A stretch of DNA of 64,000 nucleotides from Parcubacteria group bacterium GW2011_GWA2_47_26 (GCA_001001705.1 LCOG01000005.1:40714-104713), one strand, 5' to 3'; positions 591 to 63,407 are shown, counted from the first letter of the stretch. Notes: generated by a model from the sequence alone, not told the origin. Made by a program: numbers and translations.

Positions 591-648
591 GGAAAAAGAG
601 AACACTTCTAAATTTTGCAAAGCAAAATTAGAGGCGTTCTCTTTTTCC
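591..648. repeat. Family-B palindrome (intergenic variant)
   Basis: GGAAAAAGAGAACACTTCTAAATTTTGCAAAGCAAAATTAGAGGCGTTCTCTTTTTCC, just upstream of the recombinase start. Confidence 0.9.
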
Positions 649-832
649 TCCGCATGCGCTGATTAGTGTCGCACAATCTACTTTACCAAGAAAGGCGACT
701 AGACACAAGATGGGGATTATGGTATACTAAACCCAGCTTATAATTTATAATTGACGCTTTGTTCGGTTTGACGCAGGAGCGACGTCAAAAAGGAACAGTC
801 CTTATACTTGGCAGAGCGTGTCTTTATAGCCT

Positions 833-1096
833 ATGCTCAATAAAAAGAAAAAAGAGAGGATCATTGAGAAATTTAAAACCCATGCGGGAGATACGGGTTC
901 TCCGGAGGTCCAAGCCGCCCTGTTGTCCGCGGAGATTGAGGATTTGCAAGAGCACTTGCATGAACACAAAAAAGATTTTTCCTCGCGCCGCGGGCTTTTG
1001 CGCAAGGTTTCGGAACGCCGACGACTGCTCAAATATTTGGAAGGGGAGAGTCAAGATCGCGCAGTGGACTTGAGGAAAAAATTAAAGTTGGACTAA
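833..1096 (+). CDS. rpsO: 30S ribosomal protein S15
   Basis: 87 aa. [51 protein letters not shown] is a typical S15 sequence. Confidence 0.95.
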
Positions 1097-1132
1097 GAGT
1101 GGTTGAATCAGAAATCATGAATTTTAAAAAGT

Positions 1133-1211
1133 GTCATCCTGAATCACGCGAAAGCGGGATGAAGGATCTCGTGATGTTTAGAACGGGATTCTTCACTGTG
1201 TTCAGAATGAC
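1133..1211. repeat. Family-A palindromic element
   Basis: GTCATCCTGAATCACGCGAAAGCGGGATGAAGGATCTCG...GGGATTCTTCACTGTGTTCAGAATGAC, intergenic (rpsO / wzz-like). Confidence 0.85.
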
Positions 1212-1230
1212 AGTAACTATCTGATTCCCT

Positions 1231-1857
1231 ATGGAAAAGATAAGCACTGTCTTAAAACCCAAAGTAAAACTTATTAGTATTGTTGCTTTGATTACCGCGA
1301 TCCTCGCTGGCCTGCTGTCCTTGATTCAGCCTTTAAAATATTCCGCTTCAGTTCGTTTGCTTATTACCCAGCGCGCGGCTTTGACTTTTGACCCTTATAC
1401 AGCCTTGCGCTCCACTGAACTTATTGCCGAAAATCTCGCGCAGGTAGTTTCTACAAGCTCATTTTTGGAGCGCGTCTTGCAATCCGGATATAAAATTGAC
1501 GCGCAGTATTTTAGCGGCAGTGAACAGTATCGCCGTCGGCTTTGGAATAAAACCGTGGAAACGGATCTCGCGCGCGGGACAGGCATGTTGCGAGTCGCGG
1601 TATATCATCCCAATCGCGATGAGGCCATAAAGATTGTCTCGGCTATTGCTTTTCTTCTTTCAACTCAAGGCTCGGAATACATTGGCCGGGATATTACGGT
1701 ACGATTGGTGGATGCGCCTTTGCTTTCGCGCTTTCCGGTTCAGCCAAATATACCTTTGAATATTGTCGCGGGTGCGGTTTTAGGCGCGTTGCTTGGAAGC
1801 GCTTGGGTTTGGGTAGACCATCGTCAGCGCCGCCATCATGGGCAACTTTTATGGTAA
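1231..1857 (+). CDS. Wzz-like polysaccharide chain-length determinant family membrane protein
   Basis: 208 aa with an N-terminal TM (LISIVALITAILAGLLSLI) and a C-terminal TM (IVAGAVLGALLGSAWVWV) around a periplasmic domain. This is Wzz-like topology in a glycan-cluster context. Confidence 0.5.
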   Translation: MEKISTVLKPKVKLISIVALITAILAGLLSLIQPLKYSASVRLLITQRAALTFDPYTALRSTELIAENLAQVVSTSSFLERVLQSGYKIDAQYFSGSEQYRRRLWNKTVETDLARGTGMLRVAVYHPNRDEAIKIVSAIAFLLSTQGSEYIGRDITVRLVDAPLLSRFPVQPNIPLNIVAGAVLGALLGSAWVWVDHRQRRHHGQLLW

Positions 1858-60844: not shown

Positions 60845-61124
60845 AGGAGAGGATGATGTCCGCACCAGCCCCCGCAATCTGGATTCGCTGCGCGCGGCAG
60901 ATCCTCTCGCGCTCGCTTAACGCCGCTCCGCAACCATAGTGATGTTGCTTCGCGGCTACTCGCGCTCGTCCGCCGTGCTCGCTCACCAGATGCCGAGGGC
61001 TGGTGTGAAACACCCCCAAAATTGTCTCACCACACCGCCGTGGGCACGCCTCCGCACCACACTTATACGTCCCTTGTCCGTTAGCCAAAACACTAGATGA
61101 ATTTATAATTTGTTGAGTAAAATT

Positions 61125-61730
61125 ATGGAAAAACAAGTTAAACCCCTTAAATATAAATCACTTAATGGACTTTCGGAAAAGCAGTTGGCGGAGCATCATG
61201 ATGTGCTTTATGCCGGTTATGTTAAGAAAGTGAACGAGATTAACGGGAAATTGCAAGGCGTGGATTTGGGAGCTCCAAATGCTACTCATAGTGATTTGCG
61301 CGAACTAAAACTGGAAGAGACTTTTGCGTTAAATGGCGTGAAATTGCATGAAGGATATTTTGATAATCTCGGCGGAGGAGGCGGAGAGCCAACAGGTGAG
61401 ATTGCGGAAATGATCAAACAAGATTTTGGCTCTATCGCGCGGTGGAGGGAGGAGTTTAAGGCTTTGGGGATTTGCGCGCGGGGCTGGGTGGTTTTGGCGT
61501 ATGACTGGGATGAGAAAATTTTGTGCAACATTCTTTGCGACGCGCATAATCAGGGCGGGGTTTGGAATTGCAGCGCGCTTTTAATTCTTGATGTATATGA
61601 GCATGCCTATTTTCTTGATTATGCTACCGGACGCAAGGCCTATATTGAGACGTTCATGAAGAATATGGACTGGGCTTTTGTTAATGATCTTATAAAGAAG
61701 ATGCGCATTGTTGAACATCGGAAAAGTTAA
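61125..61730 (+). CDS. Fe/Mn-family superoxide dismutase
   Basis: HHDVLYAGYVKKVN...LILDVYEHAYFLDY (D-x-[WY]-E-H-A-Y motif). Confidence 0.85.
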   Translation: MEKQVKPLKYKSLNGLSEKQLAEHHDVLYAGYVKKVNEINGKLQGVDLGAPNATHSDLRELKLEETFALNGVKLHEGYFDNLGGGGGEPTGEIAEMIKQDFGSIARWREEFKALGICARGWVVLAYDWDEKILCNILCDAHNQGGVWNCSALLILDVYEHAYFLDYATGRKAYIETFMKNMDWAFVNDLIKKMRIVEHRKS

Positions 61731-61776
61731 ATGCGCAAAGTTGTAGAGATCATGTTTTGCGAAAGGGGGTGAGCGT

Positions 61777-62076
61777 ATGACAGTTATAAAAAGAGTTGAT
61801 CCAATGTCTCTGGCAAAGATCCAGGGGTTGATTGGGGTTGCTTTGGGATTGATTACCGGTTTGTTTGCCGGATTATTTGGAACCATGATGGGTTCTTTGG
61901 GGGGGTATGGCGCAGGAGGATTTGGAGCGATGATGTACGGAGGGGTGGCGGCAATATTTTTTATGCCGGTTCTCTACGGAATTTTTGGTTTCATTGCAGG
62001 GCTTGTTGGAGGATGGGTTTATAATGTAGTAGCGAAGTGGGTTGGAGGAGTAGAGGTTGATTTGGAGCAGAAGTAA
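61777..62076 (+). CDS. Small Gly-rich membrane protein, unknown function
   Basis: 99 aa with hydrophobic segments LIGVALGLITGLFAGLFGTMMG and GVAAIFFMPVLYGIFGFIAGLVGGW. Confidence 0.5.
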   Translation: MTVIKRVDPMSLAKIQGLIGVALGLITGLFAGLFGTMMGSLGGYGAGGFGAMMYGGVAAIFFMPVLYGIFGFIAGLVGGWVYNVVAKWVGGVEVDLEQK

Positions 62077-62180
62077 TTAATATTTTTTTCTGAATGTGCA
62101 GGTTTTGATCCGTCCTGACAGTGGGGCGGATCTTGTTTTATTTATAAAGTTAAGCTACTGTGGAGGTGCTAGTTTTGATT

Positions 62181-63407
62181 ATGGAACACGTTTACGTTAT
62201 TCATTATCACGAGATTGCGCTTAAAGGGAGAAACCGGGCGCTGTTTTTGCGGCAGTTGCAGAAAAATATTTGCCGCGCGACAAAAGTGTCGATTGGGCAG
62301 GTAAAAATTGCGTCGGGCAGGTTGATTGTGGAGATTGCCGCGTTACCTACGAAAAATAGGGACGTTTCTAATTTTGCTGCGCAAAATTTAGAGACGTCCA
62401 ATTTTTCTTCTCCTCGCAATGACATTAAATTAGCACTGCGGCGCGTGTTTGGAATTTCCTCTTTTGCGTCGGCGGTTTTGGTTAAAGCGGACTACGATGA
62501 AATTCAAAATGCCATCAAAACTTTCATACTTCCAAGTTTGGAAGTATTTAGTACGTTTGCGATTGCAGCCTCAAGGGGAGACAAGCAGTTTGCTATGACG
62601 TCGCATGATCTTGAGGTTAAGCTCGGAGATTTTATACGCACAGAGTTTGGCAAAAAAGTTGATCTCACTCATCCCGAAGTGACTTTTTATGTGGAGATTT
62701 TTCAGGGCGGCGCGCTTGTGTATATTGATAAAATACCAGGAGCGGGTGGTTTGCCGGTGGGCACGCAGCCTAAAGTAGCAGTCTTGCTTTCCGGGGGAAT
62801 TGATTCTCCGGTCGCGGCTTATCGCGTAATGAAACGCGGCGCGCCAGTTCTCGGTGTGCACTTCCATAGCCATCCATTTACTTCGCGCGCTTCTATTGAT
62901 AAAGTAAAAGAGTTGGCCAGAATTTTAGCCAGTTATGGCGGGCTTAATAAATTGTATCTTATACCCTTTGCTGACGCGCAGAAAATTATTGTACAGAAGA
63001 CCGCGCCAAAGTATCGCGTGCTTTTATATAGGCGGCTGATGTTGCGCATTGCCGAGCAAATTGCGGCTAGAGAAAACGCCCTGGGTTTGGCAACGGGAGA
63101 AAGCATCGGACAAGTGGCATCCCAGACTATTGAAAATTTGCGGGTTATCAATGCGGCGGCACAGCTGCCAGTTTTCCGGCCGCTTATTGGCTATGATAAA
63201 GAAGAGATAATTGCGGAGGCAAAAAAGATTGGGACTTTTGAGATTTCAATTTTGCCGCACGACGACTGCTGTACAGTATTTATGCCAAAAAATCCCGCAA
63301 CGCGAGCAAGATTGATTGATGTGGAAGGGGAAGAGGCAAATATTGATATTGCGGCACTCATGCGTAGTACCTTGGCGCAGTGCGAGGAGATGATTATAAA
63401 AATATGA
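62181..63407 (+). CDS. thiI: tRNA 4-thiouridine(8) synthase ThiI
   Basis: YHEIALKGRNRALF (N-terminal ferredoxin-like/THUMP region). PP-loop LLSGGIDSPVAAY. One in-frame family-B palindrome. Confidence 0.9.
   Translation: MEHVYVIHYHEIALKGRNRALFLRQLQKNICRATKVSIGQVKIASGRLIVEIAALPTKNRDVSNFAAQNLETSNFSSPRNDIKLALRRVFGISSFASAVLVKADYDEIQNAIKTFILPSLEVFSTFAIAASRGDKQFAMTSHDLEVKLGDFIRTEFGKKVDLTHPEVTFYVEIFQGGALVYIDKIPGAGGLPVGTQPKVAVLLSGGIDSPVAAYRVMKRGAPVLGVHFHSHPFTSRASIDKVKELARILASYGGLNKLYLIPFADAQKIIVQKTAPKYRVLLYRRLMLRIAEQIAARENALGLATGESIGQVASQTIENLRVINAAAQLPVFRPLIGYDKEEIIAEAKKIGTFEISILPHDDCCTVFMPKNPATRARLIDVEGEEANIDIAALMRSTLAQCEEMIIKI
62351..62407. repeat. Family-B palindrome, in frame in thiI
   Basis: GAAAAATAGGGACGTTTCTAATTTTGCTGCGCAAAATTTAGAGACGTCCAATTTTTC encodes KNRDVSNFAAQNLETSNFS. 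Confidence 0.9.

What the first reader, a model, noticed from the sequence alone, without database searches (positions are those of the whole stretch)
591..62407. Family-B 57-bp palindrome inserted in frame in six protein-coding sites, always yielding the peptide (K/E)NRDVSNFAAQNLETSxF
Seen: eight copies of a near-perfect palindrome, consensus GAAAAATAGGGACGTTTCTAATTTTGC-NNN-GCAAAATTTAGAAACGTCCCTATTTTC. Two are intergenic: 591-648 beside the recombinase start, and 21077-21138 just after a terminator. Six lie inside CDSs: 12056 (GH-like/FG-GAP protein), 31578 and 32101 (same GT4), 46722 (GT2), 48023 (GT2) and 62351 (ThiI). The typical coding copy is 57 nt (19 codons). None introduces a stop or frameshift, and the encoded peptides are nearly identical. 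Because the element is a palindrome, either insertion orientation gives essentially the same stop-free peptide. That looks like a sequence selected to be tolerated when it lands in genes. Established analogy: Rickettsia palindromic elements (RPEs) inserted in frame in ORFs. Inference: this is an independent, apparently undescribed RPE-like family. The RNA hairpin inside mRNAs could also affect translation or stability.
Basis: partly seen in the sequence, partly recalled or inferred. Interest (0 to 1): 0.8.

Follow-up and report, generated by a model that had tools for sequence, protein, structure and literature searches.

The report
In-frame hairpin repeats in Parcubacteria genes
A 57-base hairpin-forming repeat has spread through the genome of an uncultured groundwater Parcubacteria bacterium and sits in frame inside ordinary enzymes, adding a roughly 19-residue loop; it is a new family of the "selfish palindromes inside genes" first described in Rickettsia, now seen in a very different reduced-genome lineage.

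Summary
The window, from Parcubacteria bacterium GW2011_GWA2_47_26, has eight hairpin repeats, and six lie in frame inside genes.

Orthologue alignments show that the ThiI copy and both GT4 copies are lineage-specific insertions. An AlphaFold model puts the ThiI insert in a low-confidence loop of an otherwise intact fold. A metagenome scan added about 20 more copies, inside FolD, MurC, SMC, LepA, a UvrD-like helicase and others. No true member was found in 185,579 reference genomes or in viral contigs.

Three points need correcting:
- The eight copies are not one uniform family. Five are a "GTTT" subtype, found only in genes. Two are a "GCCT" subtype, mostly intergenic and just after gene ends. 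One has a different hairpin tip and a different central peptide.
- A conserved one-base bulge gives the hairpin an orientation. Twelve of 13 coding copies point the same way as the gene, so the two orientations are not equivalent.
- About 55% of shuffled palindromes are also stop-free on both strands, so the open frame is not evidence of design.

Best reading: a selfish, non-autonomous hairpin repeat filtered by selection. It resembles Rickettsia palindromic elements and intragenic REPs but belongs to neither. The mobilising enzyme is unknown.

The parts
591..648 (-). Intergenic copy of the GCCT subtype, 8 nt upstream of the start codon of the minus-strand xerC-like recombinase. Its canonical orientation is on the - strand.
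   Evidence: CM R1 scores 80.6 bits. A second direct copy overlaps the stop codon of the same xerC just outside the window (L024 8022-8087).
12057..12113 (+). In-frame copy of the GTTT subtype in the GHL15/FG-GAP protein gene (11050-13095). It encodes KKRDVSNFARQNLETSPFS.
   Evidence: It lies inside the Pfam GHL15 match, where residues 77-366 cover profile positions 1-270, about 20 extra residues. CM score 67.4 bits.
21073..21142 (-). Intergenic copy of the GCCT subtype (core 21079-21136; the palindrome extends by 6-8 bp). It lies immediately after a classical terminator hairpin (21043-21074), downstream of the 2186-aa gene.
   Evidence: I1; dG -43 kcal/mol. CM score 78.1 bits.
31578..31634 (+). 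In-frame variant copy in GT4 (31214-32524). It has the same outer arm (AAAAGAGGGACGTT) but a different tip (CCCCTTTTTG), forms a perfect 24-bp stem, and encodes EKRDVPLFASKRGTSLFF.
   Evidence: (I2). CM score only 37 bits. All aligned orthologues lack it, a net gain of 12 residues. It is the top terminator-like hit of the pattern scan.
32101..32157 (+). In-frame copy of the GTTT subtype in the same GT4. It encodes KNRDVSNFAAQNLETSPFS, in the loop before the conserved VxFxG strand.
   Evidence: Ten aligned orthologues have no insert there; nine Uhrbacteria-like orthologues carry other inserts in the same loop. CM score 72.4 bits.
46722..46778 (+). In-frame copy of the GTTT subtype in GT2 (46639-47499), between the first helix and the second strand. 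It encodes ENRDISNFAAQNLETSLFP.
   Evidence: CM score 73.8 bits. The identical copy is present in L017.
48023..48079 (+). In-frame copy of the GTTT subtype in GT2 (47471-48646). It encodes ENRDVSNFVTQSLETSHFP.
   Evidence: In the Pfam Glyco_tranf_2_3 match, residues 20-267 cover profile positions 8-216, about 39 extra residues. That fits this insert plus a second palindrome at 47847-47880.
62351..62407 (+). In-frame copy of the GTTT subtype in ThiI (62160-63407). It encodes KNRDVSNFAAQNLETSNFS, between the ferredoxin-like and THUMP domains.
   Evidence: In the AlphaFold2 model the insert region has pLDDT 54-58 against a mean of 91.6.

Best explanation
Family B is a family of short (about 57 nt), non-autonomous, hairpin-forming interspersed repeats. 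It has multiplied in the genome of a Parcubacteria (Uhrbacteria-like) bacterium and its close relatives.

Copies land in many kinds of site. Those seen today are the ones selection let through:
- copies in intergenic DNA, mostly just after gene ends;
- copies at the extreme 3' ends of genes, where the element supplies the last codons and the stop;
- copies inside genes that happen to be in the single stop-free frame, keep the downstream frame, and fall in a permissive surface loop.

The copies inside genes remain in the mRNA and are translated into a roughly 19-residue hydrophilic loop. The conserved inner stem, with its fixed one-base bulge (and fixed mismatches in the GCCT subtype), is the recognition module. 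The outer stem only needs to pair.

Shown here: repetition, hairpin potential, insertion status, frame, orientation bias, loop location and niche difference between subtypes.

Inferred: mobility itself, since no presence/absence polymorphism was seen; translation of the insert; and the mobilising enzyme. My best guess is a hairpin-recognising single-strand DNA enzyme of the HUH/Y1 (RAYT-like) type acting in trans. I put that sub-claim at only about 0.3.
For: Repetition and distribution:
- Chance expectation for the arm is 0.
- There are 8 copies in 64 kb, and about 20 further non-redundant copies plus 4 tip variants in metagenome contigs.
- True members score 67-83 bits with CM R1. Reference-genome hits score only 25-32 bits, are single-copy and come from non-CPR taxa.

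Insertion status:
- ThiI orthologues at 58-65% identity lack the block or carry a different insert. T. maritima ThiI (PDB 4kr6) aligns across a gap of about 24 residues there.
- Both GT4 sites are absent from orthologues.

Hosts:
- Host genes are unrelated and include housekeeping genes: FolD, MurC, SMC, LepA, a UvrD/PD-(D/E)XK helicase (two copies), a DsbA-like protein, an amino-acid kinase and a permease (Pfam).

Tolerated loop:
- The AlphaFold2 ThiI model has mean pLDDT 91.6, but 54-58 over the insert, which lies between strand 54-58 and helix 85-94.

Selection filter:
- The stop codon of xerC lies inside a copy and the protein ends ...KREHL*, so a stop-containing frame is tolerated only at a gene end.
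- Intergenic copies mostly lie 5-62 nt after a 3' end or between convergent genes.

Structure constraint:
- 14 of 26 stem pairs show changes on both sides, and 0 of 500 shuffles reach the observed covariation.
- The G-T and C-A mispairs at columns 18/49 and 20/47 lie outside the search pattern and recur in most GCCT-type copies (13 of 18) from different contigs.

Single-strand hairpin enzyme idea:
- No target-site duplications or shared flanking motif were seen.
- The genome encodes a RAYT-like Y1 transposase with its own REP doublets, one of them also in frame in a GT2.
Against: - No empty-site or filled-site polymorphism was found for any Family B copy. All independent assemblies of this population carry all copies. 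Mobility is therefore inferred from multiplicity and from absence in orthologues.
- The only Y1 transposase found is flanked by a different repeat (GTGGCCTAGCCACATAAT). No Y1 homologue lies near Family B copies in the roughly 300 kb of related loci I searched.
- Exact element boundaries and net insert lengths are unclear. GT4 site 1 shows a net gain of 12 residues and site 2 a net gain of 16, not 19.
- The 12:1 orientation bias and the exclusively genic location of the GTTT subtype (8 of 8 versus 5 of 18, Fisher p = 0.0016) do not follow from a simple random-insertion-plus-filter model. They need an added assumption. One is selection on the peptide, since the forward peptide is more hydrophilic. 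Another is a subtype-specific insertion preference.
- Translation of the insert has not been observed.
Confidence: 0.72

Rival explanations
1. The hairpin is a functional cis-element, not merely selfish DNA. It would be a mobile, bidirectional, terminator-like stem-loop (A-run, long stem, T-run). Between genes it would terminate or stabilise transcripts. Inside genes it would link transcription termination or mRNA stability to ongoing translation.
For: - The geometry is GAAAAA, then a 20-26 bp stem, then TTTTTC, on both strands.
- The 31585-31627 copy is the strongest terminator-like hit in a 12.5-kb scan.
- GCCT-subtype copies are strongly enriched in intergenic DNA: 13 of 18, against about 8% non-coding sequence (p = 2e-11).
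- These copies lie mostly just after 3' ends or between convergent genes. This is the same distribution reported for REPs (PMC3733652).
Against: - The 21077 copy sits directly after a separate classical terminator (21043-21074), so it is not needed for termination there.
- The 591 copy lies upstream of a start codon in a divergent region.
- Copies inside 13 or more unrelated housekeeping genes have no common regulatory logic.
- Orthologues lack them, so they are dispensable.
- No Rfam family matches.
- This reading does not exclude a selfish origin.
Confidence: 0.15
2. The intragenic copies are not translated. They would be removed from the mRNA (mini-intron) or skipped by the ribosome, as with the byp elements of Magnusiomyces mitochondria or phage T4 gene 60.
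For: A very stable hairpin inside an ORF is the kind of signal used in programmed bypassing (my background knowledge). No transcript or protein data are available for these genes.
Against: - Every intragenic copy (13 canonical plus 4 variants) is in the one stop-free frame of its strand and preserves the downstream frame. That constraint would be unnecessary if the segment were removed or bypassed.
- Copies read in a stop-containing frame occur only at gene ends.
- No matched take-off and landing codons flank the copies.
Confidence: 0.03
3. The hairpins are recombination sites for a tyrosine recombinase, either Xer/dif-like or integron attC-like. The xerC-like gene in the window is flanked by two direct copies.
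For: - xerC (L024 8063-9142) has one copy 8 nt upstream of its start and another overlapping its stop, both in the same orientation.
- attC sites are imperfect palindromes of 57-141 nt with extrahelical bases that set strand choice (my background knowledge). That resembles the conserved bulge here.
Against: - No recombinase homologue lies near any of the other roughly 25 independent copies (tblastn).
- The attC core sites RYYYAAC and GTTRRRY are absent from the consensus.
- Copies sit inside conserved housekeeping genes, not at cassette boundaries.
- At about one copy per 8 kb, with copies favouring gene ends, two copies around one gene can arise by chance.
Confidence: 0.03
4. The blocks are native, ancestral protein sequence, or assembly artefacts, rather than insertions.
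For: None beyond the in-frame status of the blocks.
Against: - Orthologue alignments show absence.
- Near-identical DNA occurs in unrelated proteins and in intergenic DNA.
- The copies are identical in independent assemblies from NCBI, JGI and ENA.
Confidence: 0.01

Closest known systems
Rickettsia palindromic elements (RPE-1 to RPE-10; Ogata et al. 2000 and 2002, as summarised in PMC10969869)
   Same: - Interspersed palindromic repeats in a reduced-genome bacterium.
- Found both between genes and in frame inside unrelated functional genes.
- Each family encodes a conserved peptide.
- Inserts are compatible with the host protein fold.
- No autonomous parent element is known.
   Different: - The host is a Parcubacteria/Patescibacteria bacterium, not Rickettsia.
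- The element is 57 nt, against about 100-150 bp.
- It is a near-perfect single hairpin with A-run and T-run flanks.
- It shows a strong sense-orientation bias and splits into genic and intergenic subtypes.
- Sequence relatedness to RPEs was not tested.
REPs and REP doublets (REPINs) mobilised by RAYT Y1 transposases, including intragenic GTAG- and CGTC-tagged REPs (PMC3116915, PMC3733652, PMC3479197)
   Same: - Short hairpin repeats, often forming one long hairpin of 50-110 nt.
- Enriched after 3' ends and between convergent genes.
- Some dimers lie inside ORFs and encode 20-30 residues.
- Imperfections in the stem are conserved.
- No target-site duplication is made.
- A RAYT with genuine REP doublets is present in this same genome.
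   Different: - The arms are not themselves palindromic REP units.
- There is no GTAG or CGTC tag at the element's end. CGTC occurs only inside the GTTT-subtype stem and is absent from the GCCT subtype.
- The RAYT in the window is flanked by a different repeat.
- About half of the known copies are intragenic.
[quoted passage not shown]
   Same: Small non-autonomous repeats with a terminator-like stem-loop. Some are found inside genes, producing in-frame fusions.
   Different: - Classical MITEs are 70-300 bp and have terminal inverted repeats and target-site duplications. Family B shows neither duplication nor a recognisable parent IS.
- The host phylum is different.
- There is no experimental evidence here for termination.
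Coding palindromes and byp elements of organelle genes (Nematomorpha mitochondria, PMC6649704; Magnusiomyces byps, my background knowledge)
   Same: Hairpin-forming inserts inside protein-coding genes.
   Different: The Nematomorpha repeats are long, gene-internal inverted repeats, not a dispersed family. The byps carry stops or frame shifts and are bypassed by the ribosome. Family B copies are always open and in frame.

Membership tests
Rickettsia palindromic elements (RPE) | Occurs in genomes of the genus Rickettsia | tested here: not met
   The host GT4 protein is 100% identical to a protein of Parcubacteria group bacterium GW2011_GWA2_47_26. The nearest named homologues are from Candidatus Uhrbacteria.
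Rickettsia palindromic elements (RPE) | Element length of about 100-150 bp | tested here: not met
   The element is 57 nt (19 codons) in the GTTT subtype and 56-58 nt in the GCCT subtype. The RPE length is taken from PMC10969869.
Rickettsia palindromic elements (RPE) | Palindromic and able to form a stable hairpin | tested here: met
   dG from -24 to -45 kcal/mol and z from -4.6 to -11 on both strands. Arm complementarity is kept through compensatory changes.
Rickettsia palindromic elements (RPE) | Inserted in frame in unrelated functional ORFs, as well as in intergenic DNA, and encoding a conserved peptide | tested here: met
   Insertion status is shown for ThiI and for both GT4 sites.
Rickettsia palindromic elements (RPE) | The insert lies at a position compatible with the fold of the host protein (a surface loop) | tested here: met
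   For ThiI, the AlphaFold2 model has mean pLDDT 91.6, with 54-58 over the insert, which lies between two secondary-structure elements. The other hosts were judged only from alignments and Pfam coordinates.
Rickettsia palindromic elements (RPE) | Sequence similarity to an RPE consensus | not tested
Rfam has no match.
REP / REPIN (RAYT-associated) | The unit is a 20-40 nt imperfect palindrome tagged at one end by GTAG or CGTC | tested here: not met
   The element's ends are GAAAAA and TTTTTC. CGTC occurs only inside the stem of the GTTT subtype and is absent from the GCCT subtype. The definition is from PMC3733652.
REP / REPIN (RAYT-associated) | A cognate RAYT gene is flanked by the same repeat | tested here: not met
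   The RAYT-like gene (window 27288-27887, intact in L028 5823-6674) matches PF01797 and NF047646 (E = 4e-8, below that model's cutoff). It is flanked by GTGGCCTAGCCACATAAT hairpins, not by Family B. Only about 300 kb of the genome and its relatives could be examined.
REP / REPIN (RAYT-associated) | Predominantly extragenic, lying after 3' ends or between convergent genes | tested here: inconclusive
   Met by the GCCT subtype (13 of 18 intergenic). Not met by the GTTT subtype (8 of 8 intragenic).
MITE | Terminal inverted repeats with a target-site duplication, and derivation from a parent IS | tested here: not met
   No direct repeats and no common motif flank the copies. The whole element is a single hairpin. 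No parent IS was found, though the genome is incomplete.
Intrinsic (rho-independent) terminator or terminator-like mobile element | A G+C-containing stem-loop followed by a T-run, located after a gene, that terminates transcription | tested here: inconclusive
   The geometry is met and the position is met for most intergenic copies. Termination itself cannot be tested with these tools. The 21077 copy follows a separate classical terminator.
Integron attC site | Core sites RYYYAAC and GTTRRRY, located at cassette boundaries next to an integron integrase | tested here: not met
   The core sites are absent from the consensus. Copies lie inside housekeeping genes. Apart from xerC, no recombinase lies near any copy.

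The most novel reading that the evidence does not exclude
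Family B may be the visible tip of an undescribed, lineage-wide process in Uhrbacteria-like Patescibacteria. In this reading, many families of hairpin repeats continually colonise and replace one another in the same permissive loops of essential proteins. Examples are the ThiI and GT4 hot-spot loops, and a palindrome nested in a Family B loop. One lineage, the GTTT subtype, would have become specialised for life inside ORFs: 57 nt (19 codons), sense-oriented, and encoding a hydrophilic peptide. It would derive from a terminator-like intergenic ancestor (the GCCT subtype) and be mobilised as a single-strand hairpin by a RAYT-like enzyme.
Probability: 0.2. Interest if true: 0.75.

Novelty: new member of a known kind. 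Interest (0 to 1): 0.5.

Why it matters
- It shows that the Rickettsia phenomenon of selfish DNA inside protein-coding genes recurs independently in Patescibacteria. This is another lineage with small genomes and a probably host-dependent lifestyle. The recurrence supports the idea that weak purifying selection in such lineages lets hairpin repeats invade ORFs.
- Practically, such inserts inflate and diversify CPR proteins. They create lineage-specific loops that confuse homology searches and domain boundaries.
- They also cause assembly chimeras. P0121 joins two genes at the repeat.
- The orientation bias and the genic-versus-intergenic subtype split give a concrete handle on how a selfish repeat adapts to coding sequence.
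- The co-resident RAYT/REP system offers a testable candidate mobilisation mechanism.

Tried and rejected
1. Exact-core scan of 185,579 reference genomes: 0 hits. A relaxed-loop scan gave 24 single-copy hits in unrelated taxa. They score only 25-32 bits with the CM, so they are chance AT-rich palindromes.
2. Viral contigs: 0 hits.
3. Census by peptide in the 5.8-billion-protein database:
   - A tandem-triplicated profile returned only one protein at E <= 10.
   - A 31-residue window fragment searched against 1.84 billion representatives returned nothing. The peptide is too short for these tools.
4. Rfam: no family at gathering thresholds.
5. Xer/attC recombination-site idea: rejected.
6. RNA-level selection in the sense strand, tested as an excess of G-U over A-C mispairs: no asymmetry.
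7. A replication-strand explanation for the orientation bias. The intergenic copies in the window (GCCT subtype) lie in the opposite orientation to the five canonical (GTTT) genic ones, and intergenic copies elsewhere are mixed, so it is not supported.
8. Target-site duplication or a shared flanking tetranucleotide: none seen.
9. Presence/absence polymorphism of Family B among 4-8 independent assemblies: none. Only unrelated indels were found.
10. L011, L012 and L013 share the core but pair poorly in the outer stem (11-14 of 26 pairs). I treat them as non-members.
11. A claim that element length (3n versus non-3n) separates the subtypes: dropped, because the true element boundaries cannot be fixed from palindromy alone.

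Full report
**Observation**

A 19-nt arm of the reported palindrome matches six times in the window at up to 3 mismatches, against 0.00 expected in 100 shuffles. A fuzzy search recovers all eight reported copies at the stated coordinates. The six genic copies lie in long + strand ORFs annotated by Pfam as GHL15/FG-GAP, GT4 (two copies), two GT2s and ThiI. Each copy is read in the only stop-free frame of that strand. All copies fold into very stable hairpins as RNA on either strand, with dG from -24 to -45 kcal/mol, z from -4.6 to -11, and 0 of 200 shuffles folding as well.

The same DNA is present at 100% identity in independent NCBI, JGI and ENA assemblies. The copies are therefore real.

**Source organism**

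The window's GT4 protein is 100% identical to a protein of Parcubacteria group bacterium GW2011_GWA2_47_26. A matching contig belongs to GCA_001001845.1. The nearest named homologues of ThiI and GT4 are from Candidatus Uhrbacteria.

**Corrections to the description**

The element is not a symmetric palindrome. The inner arms are TCTAATTTTGC and GCAAAATTTAGA, so the right arm carries one extra T. This bulge is present in all seven TCTAA-type copies in the window. It gives the element an orientation.

The five canonical genic copies (GGGACGTTTCTAA..., here called the GTTT subtype) all point the same way as their genes. The two intergenic copies form a different subtype (GAGAACGCCTCTAA...TTAGAAGTGTTCTC, loop TTT, here called GCCT). 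They lie in the opposite orientation on the + strand.

The 31578 copy shares only the outer arm. It has a different tip and encodes EKRDVPLFASKRGTSLFF. It scores 37 bits with the covariance model, against 67-83 bits for the others.

**Are the blocks insertions?**

- *ThiI.* The solved T. maritima enzyme (4kr6) aligns to residues 10-57 and 92-392 of the window protein, leaving about 24 unmatched residues where the element sits. Among 21 orthologues at 48-69% identity, none has the block. Several have no insert, and others carry different palindrome-type peptides in the same loop.
- *GT4.* Both sites are absent from all aligned orthologues. At the second site, ten orthologues have a 2-3 residue turn. 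Nine Uhrbacteria-like orthologues carry other, unrelated inserts. In one of them (P0137, locus L057) the insert consists of two tandem perfect 14-bp-stem palindromes. The loop is therefore a hot spot for hairpin elements of several families.
- *GHL15 and the GT2s.* Pfam coordinates show about 20 and about 39 surplus residues inside the domain matches.
- *Structure.* An AlphaFold2 model of the window ThiI has mean pLDDT 91.6. Confidence drops to 54-58 across residues 61-80, where a short helix (69-76) is predicted between strand 54-58 and helix 85-94. The rest of the fold is intact.

**Wider distribution**

An exact-core scan of 185,579 reference genomes found nothing. The same pattern in JGI metagenome contigs found 22 loci. 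Two of these overlap the window, and three pairs are duplicates of each other.

A covariance model built from 26 copies found further members and tip variants in these and in neighbouring loci. A relaxed-loop scan of the reference genomes gave 24 single-copy hits in unrelated taxa. These score only 25-32 bits and are chance AT-rich palindromes. Viral contigs gave nothing. The family is therefore narrow.

Additional hosts, confirmed with Pfam, are FolD, MurC, SMC, a DsbA-like thioredoxin, a UvrD/PD-(D/E)XK helicase-nuclease (two copies), an amino-acid kinase, another GT4, a Trp/Tyr-type permease and LepA. Several of these are essential housekeeping proteins. The inserts must therefore be tolerated.

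**Orientation, frame and niche**

Of 13 orientable genic copies, 12 have the gene's orientation. The exception is the amino-acid kinase in L014. The binomial p is 0.003.

The reverse orientation is also stop-free in one frame, but it encodes xKGDVSKFCAAKLETSLFF. Its GRAVY is about -0.3 to +0.3, against -0.6 to -1.2 for the forward peptide. Selection on the peptide is a plausible cause of the bias, but it is only inferred.

The intergenic copies in the window (GCCT subtype) lie in the opposite orientation to the five canonical (GTTT) genic ones, and intergenic copies elsewhere have mixed orientation relative to neighbouring genes. Most lie 5-62 nt after a 3' end or between convergent genes. This does not support a replication-strand explanation.

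The subtypes differ in niche. GTTT is 8 of 8 genic, while GCCT-like copies are 5 genic and 13 intergenic (Fisher p = 0.0016). The intergenic enrichment of GCCT, against about 8% non-coding sequence, gives p = 2e-11.

The existence of one open frame per strand is not evidence of design. Among composition-matched shuffled palindromes, 55% have an open frame on both strands.

Copies read in a stop-containing frame occur at gene ends. The xerC-like gene ends ...KREHL* inside a copy. This is what insertion in any frame followed by purifying selection predicts. The same constraint argues that the genic copies are translated rather than spliced out or bypassed.

**Structure versus sequence constraint**

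Across the 26 aligned copies, 14 of 26 stem pairs show changes on both sides. The covariation score is 0.224 against 0.134 ± 0.010 in shuffles (0 of 500 reach it), and all slid registers score lower.

The outer stem varies with compensation: GAGAAC/GTTCTC, GGGACC/GGTCCC and TAGGGAC/GTCCCTA. The inner stem keeps fixed imperfections. One is the bulged T. The others are a G-T and a C-A mispair at columns 18/49 and 20/47 in most GCCT copies. Those columns lie outside the search pattern.

No excess of G-U over A-C was seen on the sense strand. There is therefore no specific signal for RNA-level selection.

This layout, with a sequence-specific imperfect inner hairpin and a merely complementary outer clamp, is what hairpin-recognising HUH/Y1 enzymes use. 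Examples are IS200/IS605 TnpA and the RAYTs (my background knowledge; see PMC3479197 and PMC6006769). This is a lead, not a demonstration.

**Context relevant to mechanism**

The window encodes a RAYT-like Y1 transposase at 27288-27887.
- It matches PF01797 and NF047646 at E = 4e-8, below that model's cutoff.
- It is intact (283 aa) in three other assemblies. In the window it has lost 104 nt between CAAAA microhomologies.
- It is flanked by inverted GTGGCCTAGCCACATAAT hairpins. Doublets of the same repeat occur in L009 and L032. A related doublet lies in frame in the GT2 at 47847-47880, encoding SGQATTESGLAT.

This genome therefore has a genuine REP/RAYT system whose repeats also enter ORFs. 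Its repeats are not Family B, however. No other Y1 homologue was found in the roughly 300 kb of related loci searched. No target-site duplication or shared flanking motif accompanies Family B copies. One Family B-like copy carries another small palindrome nested in its loop (L024 669-757).

**Comparison with known systems**

Family B works like Rickettsia palindromic elements, which are interspersed palindromes tolerated in frame in unrelated genes (PMC10969869). It also resembles the intragenic REP dimers of Opitutus and Rickettsia, which encode 20-30 residues (PMC3733652).

It is not a member of either group. The host differs, it is 57 nt long rather than 100-150 bp, it has no GTAG or CGTC end tag, its arms are not REP units, and the local RAYT has different flanks. 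It lacks the target-site duplications and the separate terminal inverted repeats of MITEs, and the core sites of attC. Rfam has no match. Its geometry resembles terminator-like repeats such as SPRITE, but the 21077 copy follows a separate classical terminator.

I found no paper describing such elements in Patescibacteria in the searchable library. That library is incomplete.

**Verdict**

This is a real and well-supported feature. It is a new family, in a new host phylum, of a known kind of element. Interest is moderate at 0.5. The parallel with Rickettsia, the orientation and subtype structure, and the evident abundance of several such families in these genomes are noteworthy. The principle is not new, and neither mobility nor the mobilising enzyme has been demonstrated.

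Noticed in passing
window 27288-27887 (+); flanks 27140-27174 and 27857-27896; intact version at L028 5823-6674: A RAYT-like Y1 (HUH) transposase gene (PF01797; NF047646 at E = 4e-8, below cutoff) is flanked by inverted GTGGCCTAGCCACATAAT hairpins. In the window it has lost 104 nt of its N-terminal region between CAAAA microhomologies. It is intact (283 aa) in three other assemblies. The gene also contains an in-frame perfect 18-bp-stem palindrome at 27374-27417.
   Followed up: partly
window 47847-47880 (+), inside GT2 47471-48646; also L009 1294-1337 and L032 526-569: Doublets of the RAYT-flanking REP-like hairpin (GTGGCC[A/T]AGCCAC) occur elsewhere. One divergent doublet sits in frame in a GT2 and encodes SGQATTESGLAT. 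A second hairpin family therefore also enters ORFs.
   Followed up: partly
window 106-162 (in xerC, - strand), 1133-1212 (intergenic), 31820-31921 (in GT4): Another repeat family begins GTCATyCTGAG and ends CTCAGrATGAC (60-100 nt). It is in frame in the xerC-like recombinase (KRHPERSEGSRNSSAERLRMT) and in GT4 (...LVRGRLREGSRDSPSAVGGRRMT). Similar peptides appear in orthologues of ThiI, FolD, SMC and the helicase.
   Followed up: partly
alignment A1 (ThiI, columns 101-132 and others) and A5 (GT4, columns 414-459); L057 3786-3879: The same protein loops carry different palindrome-derived inserts in different Uhrbacteria-like orthologues. In L057 the GT4 loop holds two tandem 14-bp-stem palindromes. 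These loops look like hot spots, or sites where one element replaces another.
   Followed up: partly
L024 8022-8087 and window 591-648: The xerC-like recombinase gene is bracketed by two direct Family B copies (95% identical). One is 8 nt upstream of its start. The other overlaps its stop codon and supplies the last residues (...KREHL*).
   Followed up: yes
L024 669-757: A Family B-like hairpin has a second small palindrome (CAAGGCTAAGCCTTG) nested in its loop. It lies inside a short ORF among T4SS-pilin-like genes.
   Followed up: no
P0121 (ENA contig of 1147 nt): This predicted 84-aa protein is a chimera. It consists of the N-terminus of the window GT2 (46639...) up to the element, followed by the sequence that follows the second element of the L022 helicase. 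This is probably an assembly mis-join across the repeat, or possibly a real recombination between copies. It suggests L022 belongs to the same population.
   Followed up: partly
window 35748/35749 and 59063/59064; L028 14537-14646; L023 747-861: A segment of about 110-115 nt is present in some assemblies and absent from the window at two sites. It begins next to the motif TTTCACTTCGTCTCGCTC. A similar motif lies upstream of the RAYT gene (about 27220-27250). It may be a polymorphic small mobile element.
   Followed up: partly
window 46906-46918; window 3446-3507 and 8004-8047: Small strain-level indels occur. L017 lacks 13 nt in the GT2 gene that carries the 46722 copy, which shifts the frame. 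L027 (GCA_001001845.1) lacks 62 nt and 44 nt. None of these involves Family B.
   Followed up: yes
L032 1-6200 versus the window upstream of about 48750: In one assembly the glycosyltransferase cluster that carries the 46722 and 48023 copies is replaced by a different gene set (RNase H, RecJ, LepA, MurJ). The cluster appears to be a variable island. LepA there carries a Family B tip variant, AKKRDVSDFSERKIETSPFL.
   Followed up: partly
window 20337-20413 (-): ARAGORN calls a tRNA-Thr(GGT) inside the 2186-aa ORF, but Rfam finds no tRNA at gathering thresholds. It is probably a false positive.
   Followed up: partly
window 8089-8137, 6105-6166, 23098-23148, 33317-33385, 36205-36238, 42454-42493: Several further long palindromes of other sequence types are present, some of them inside ORFs. 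They suggest many hairpin families in this genome.
   Followed up: no
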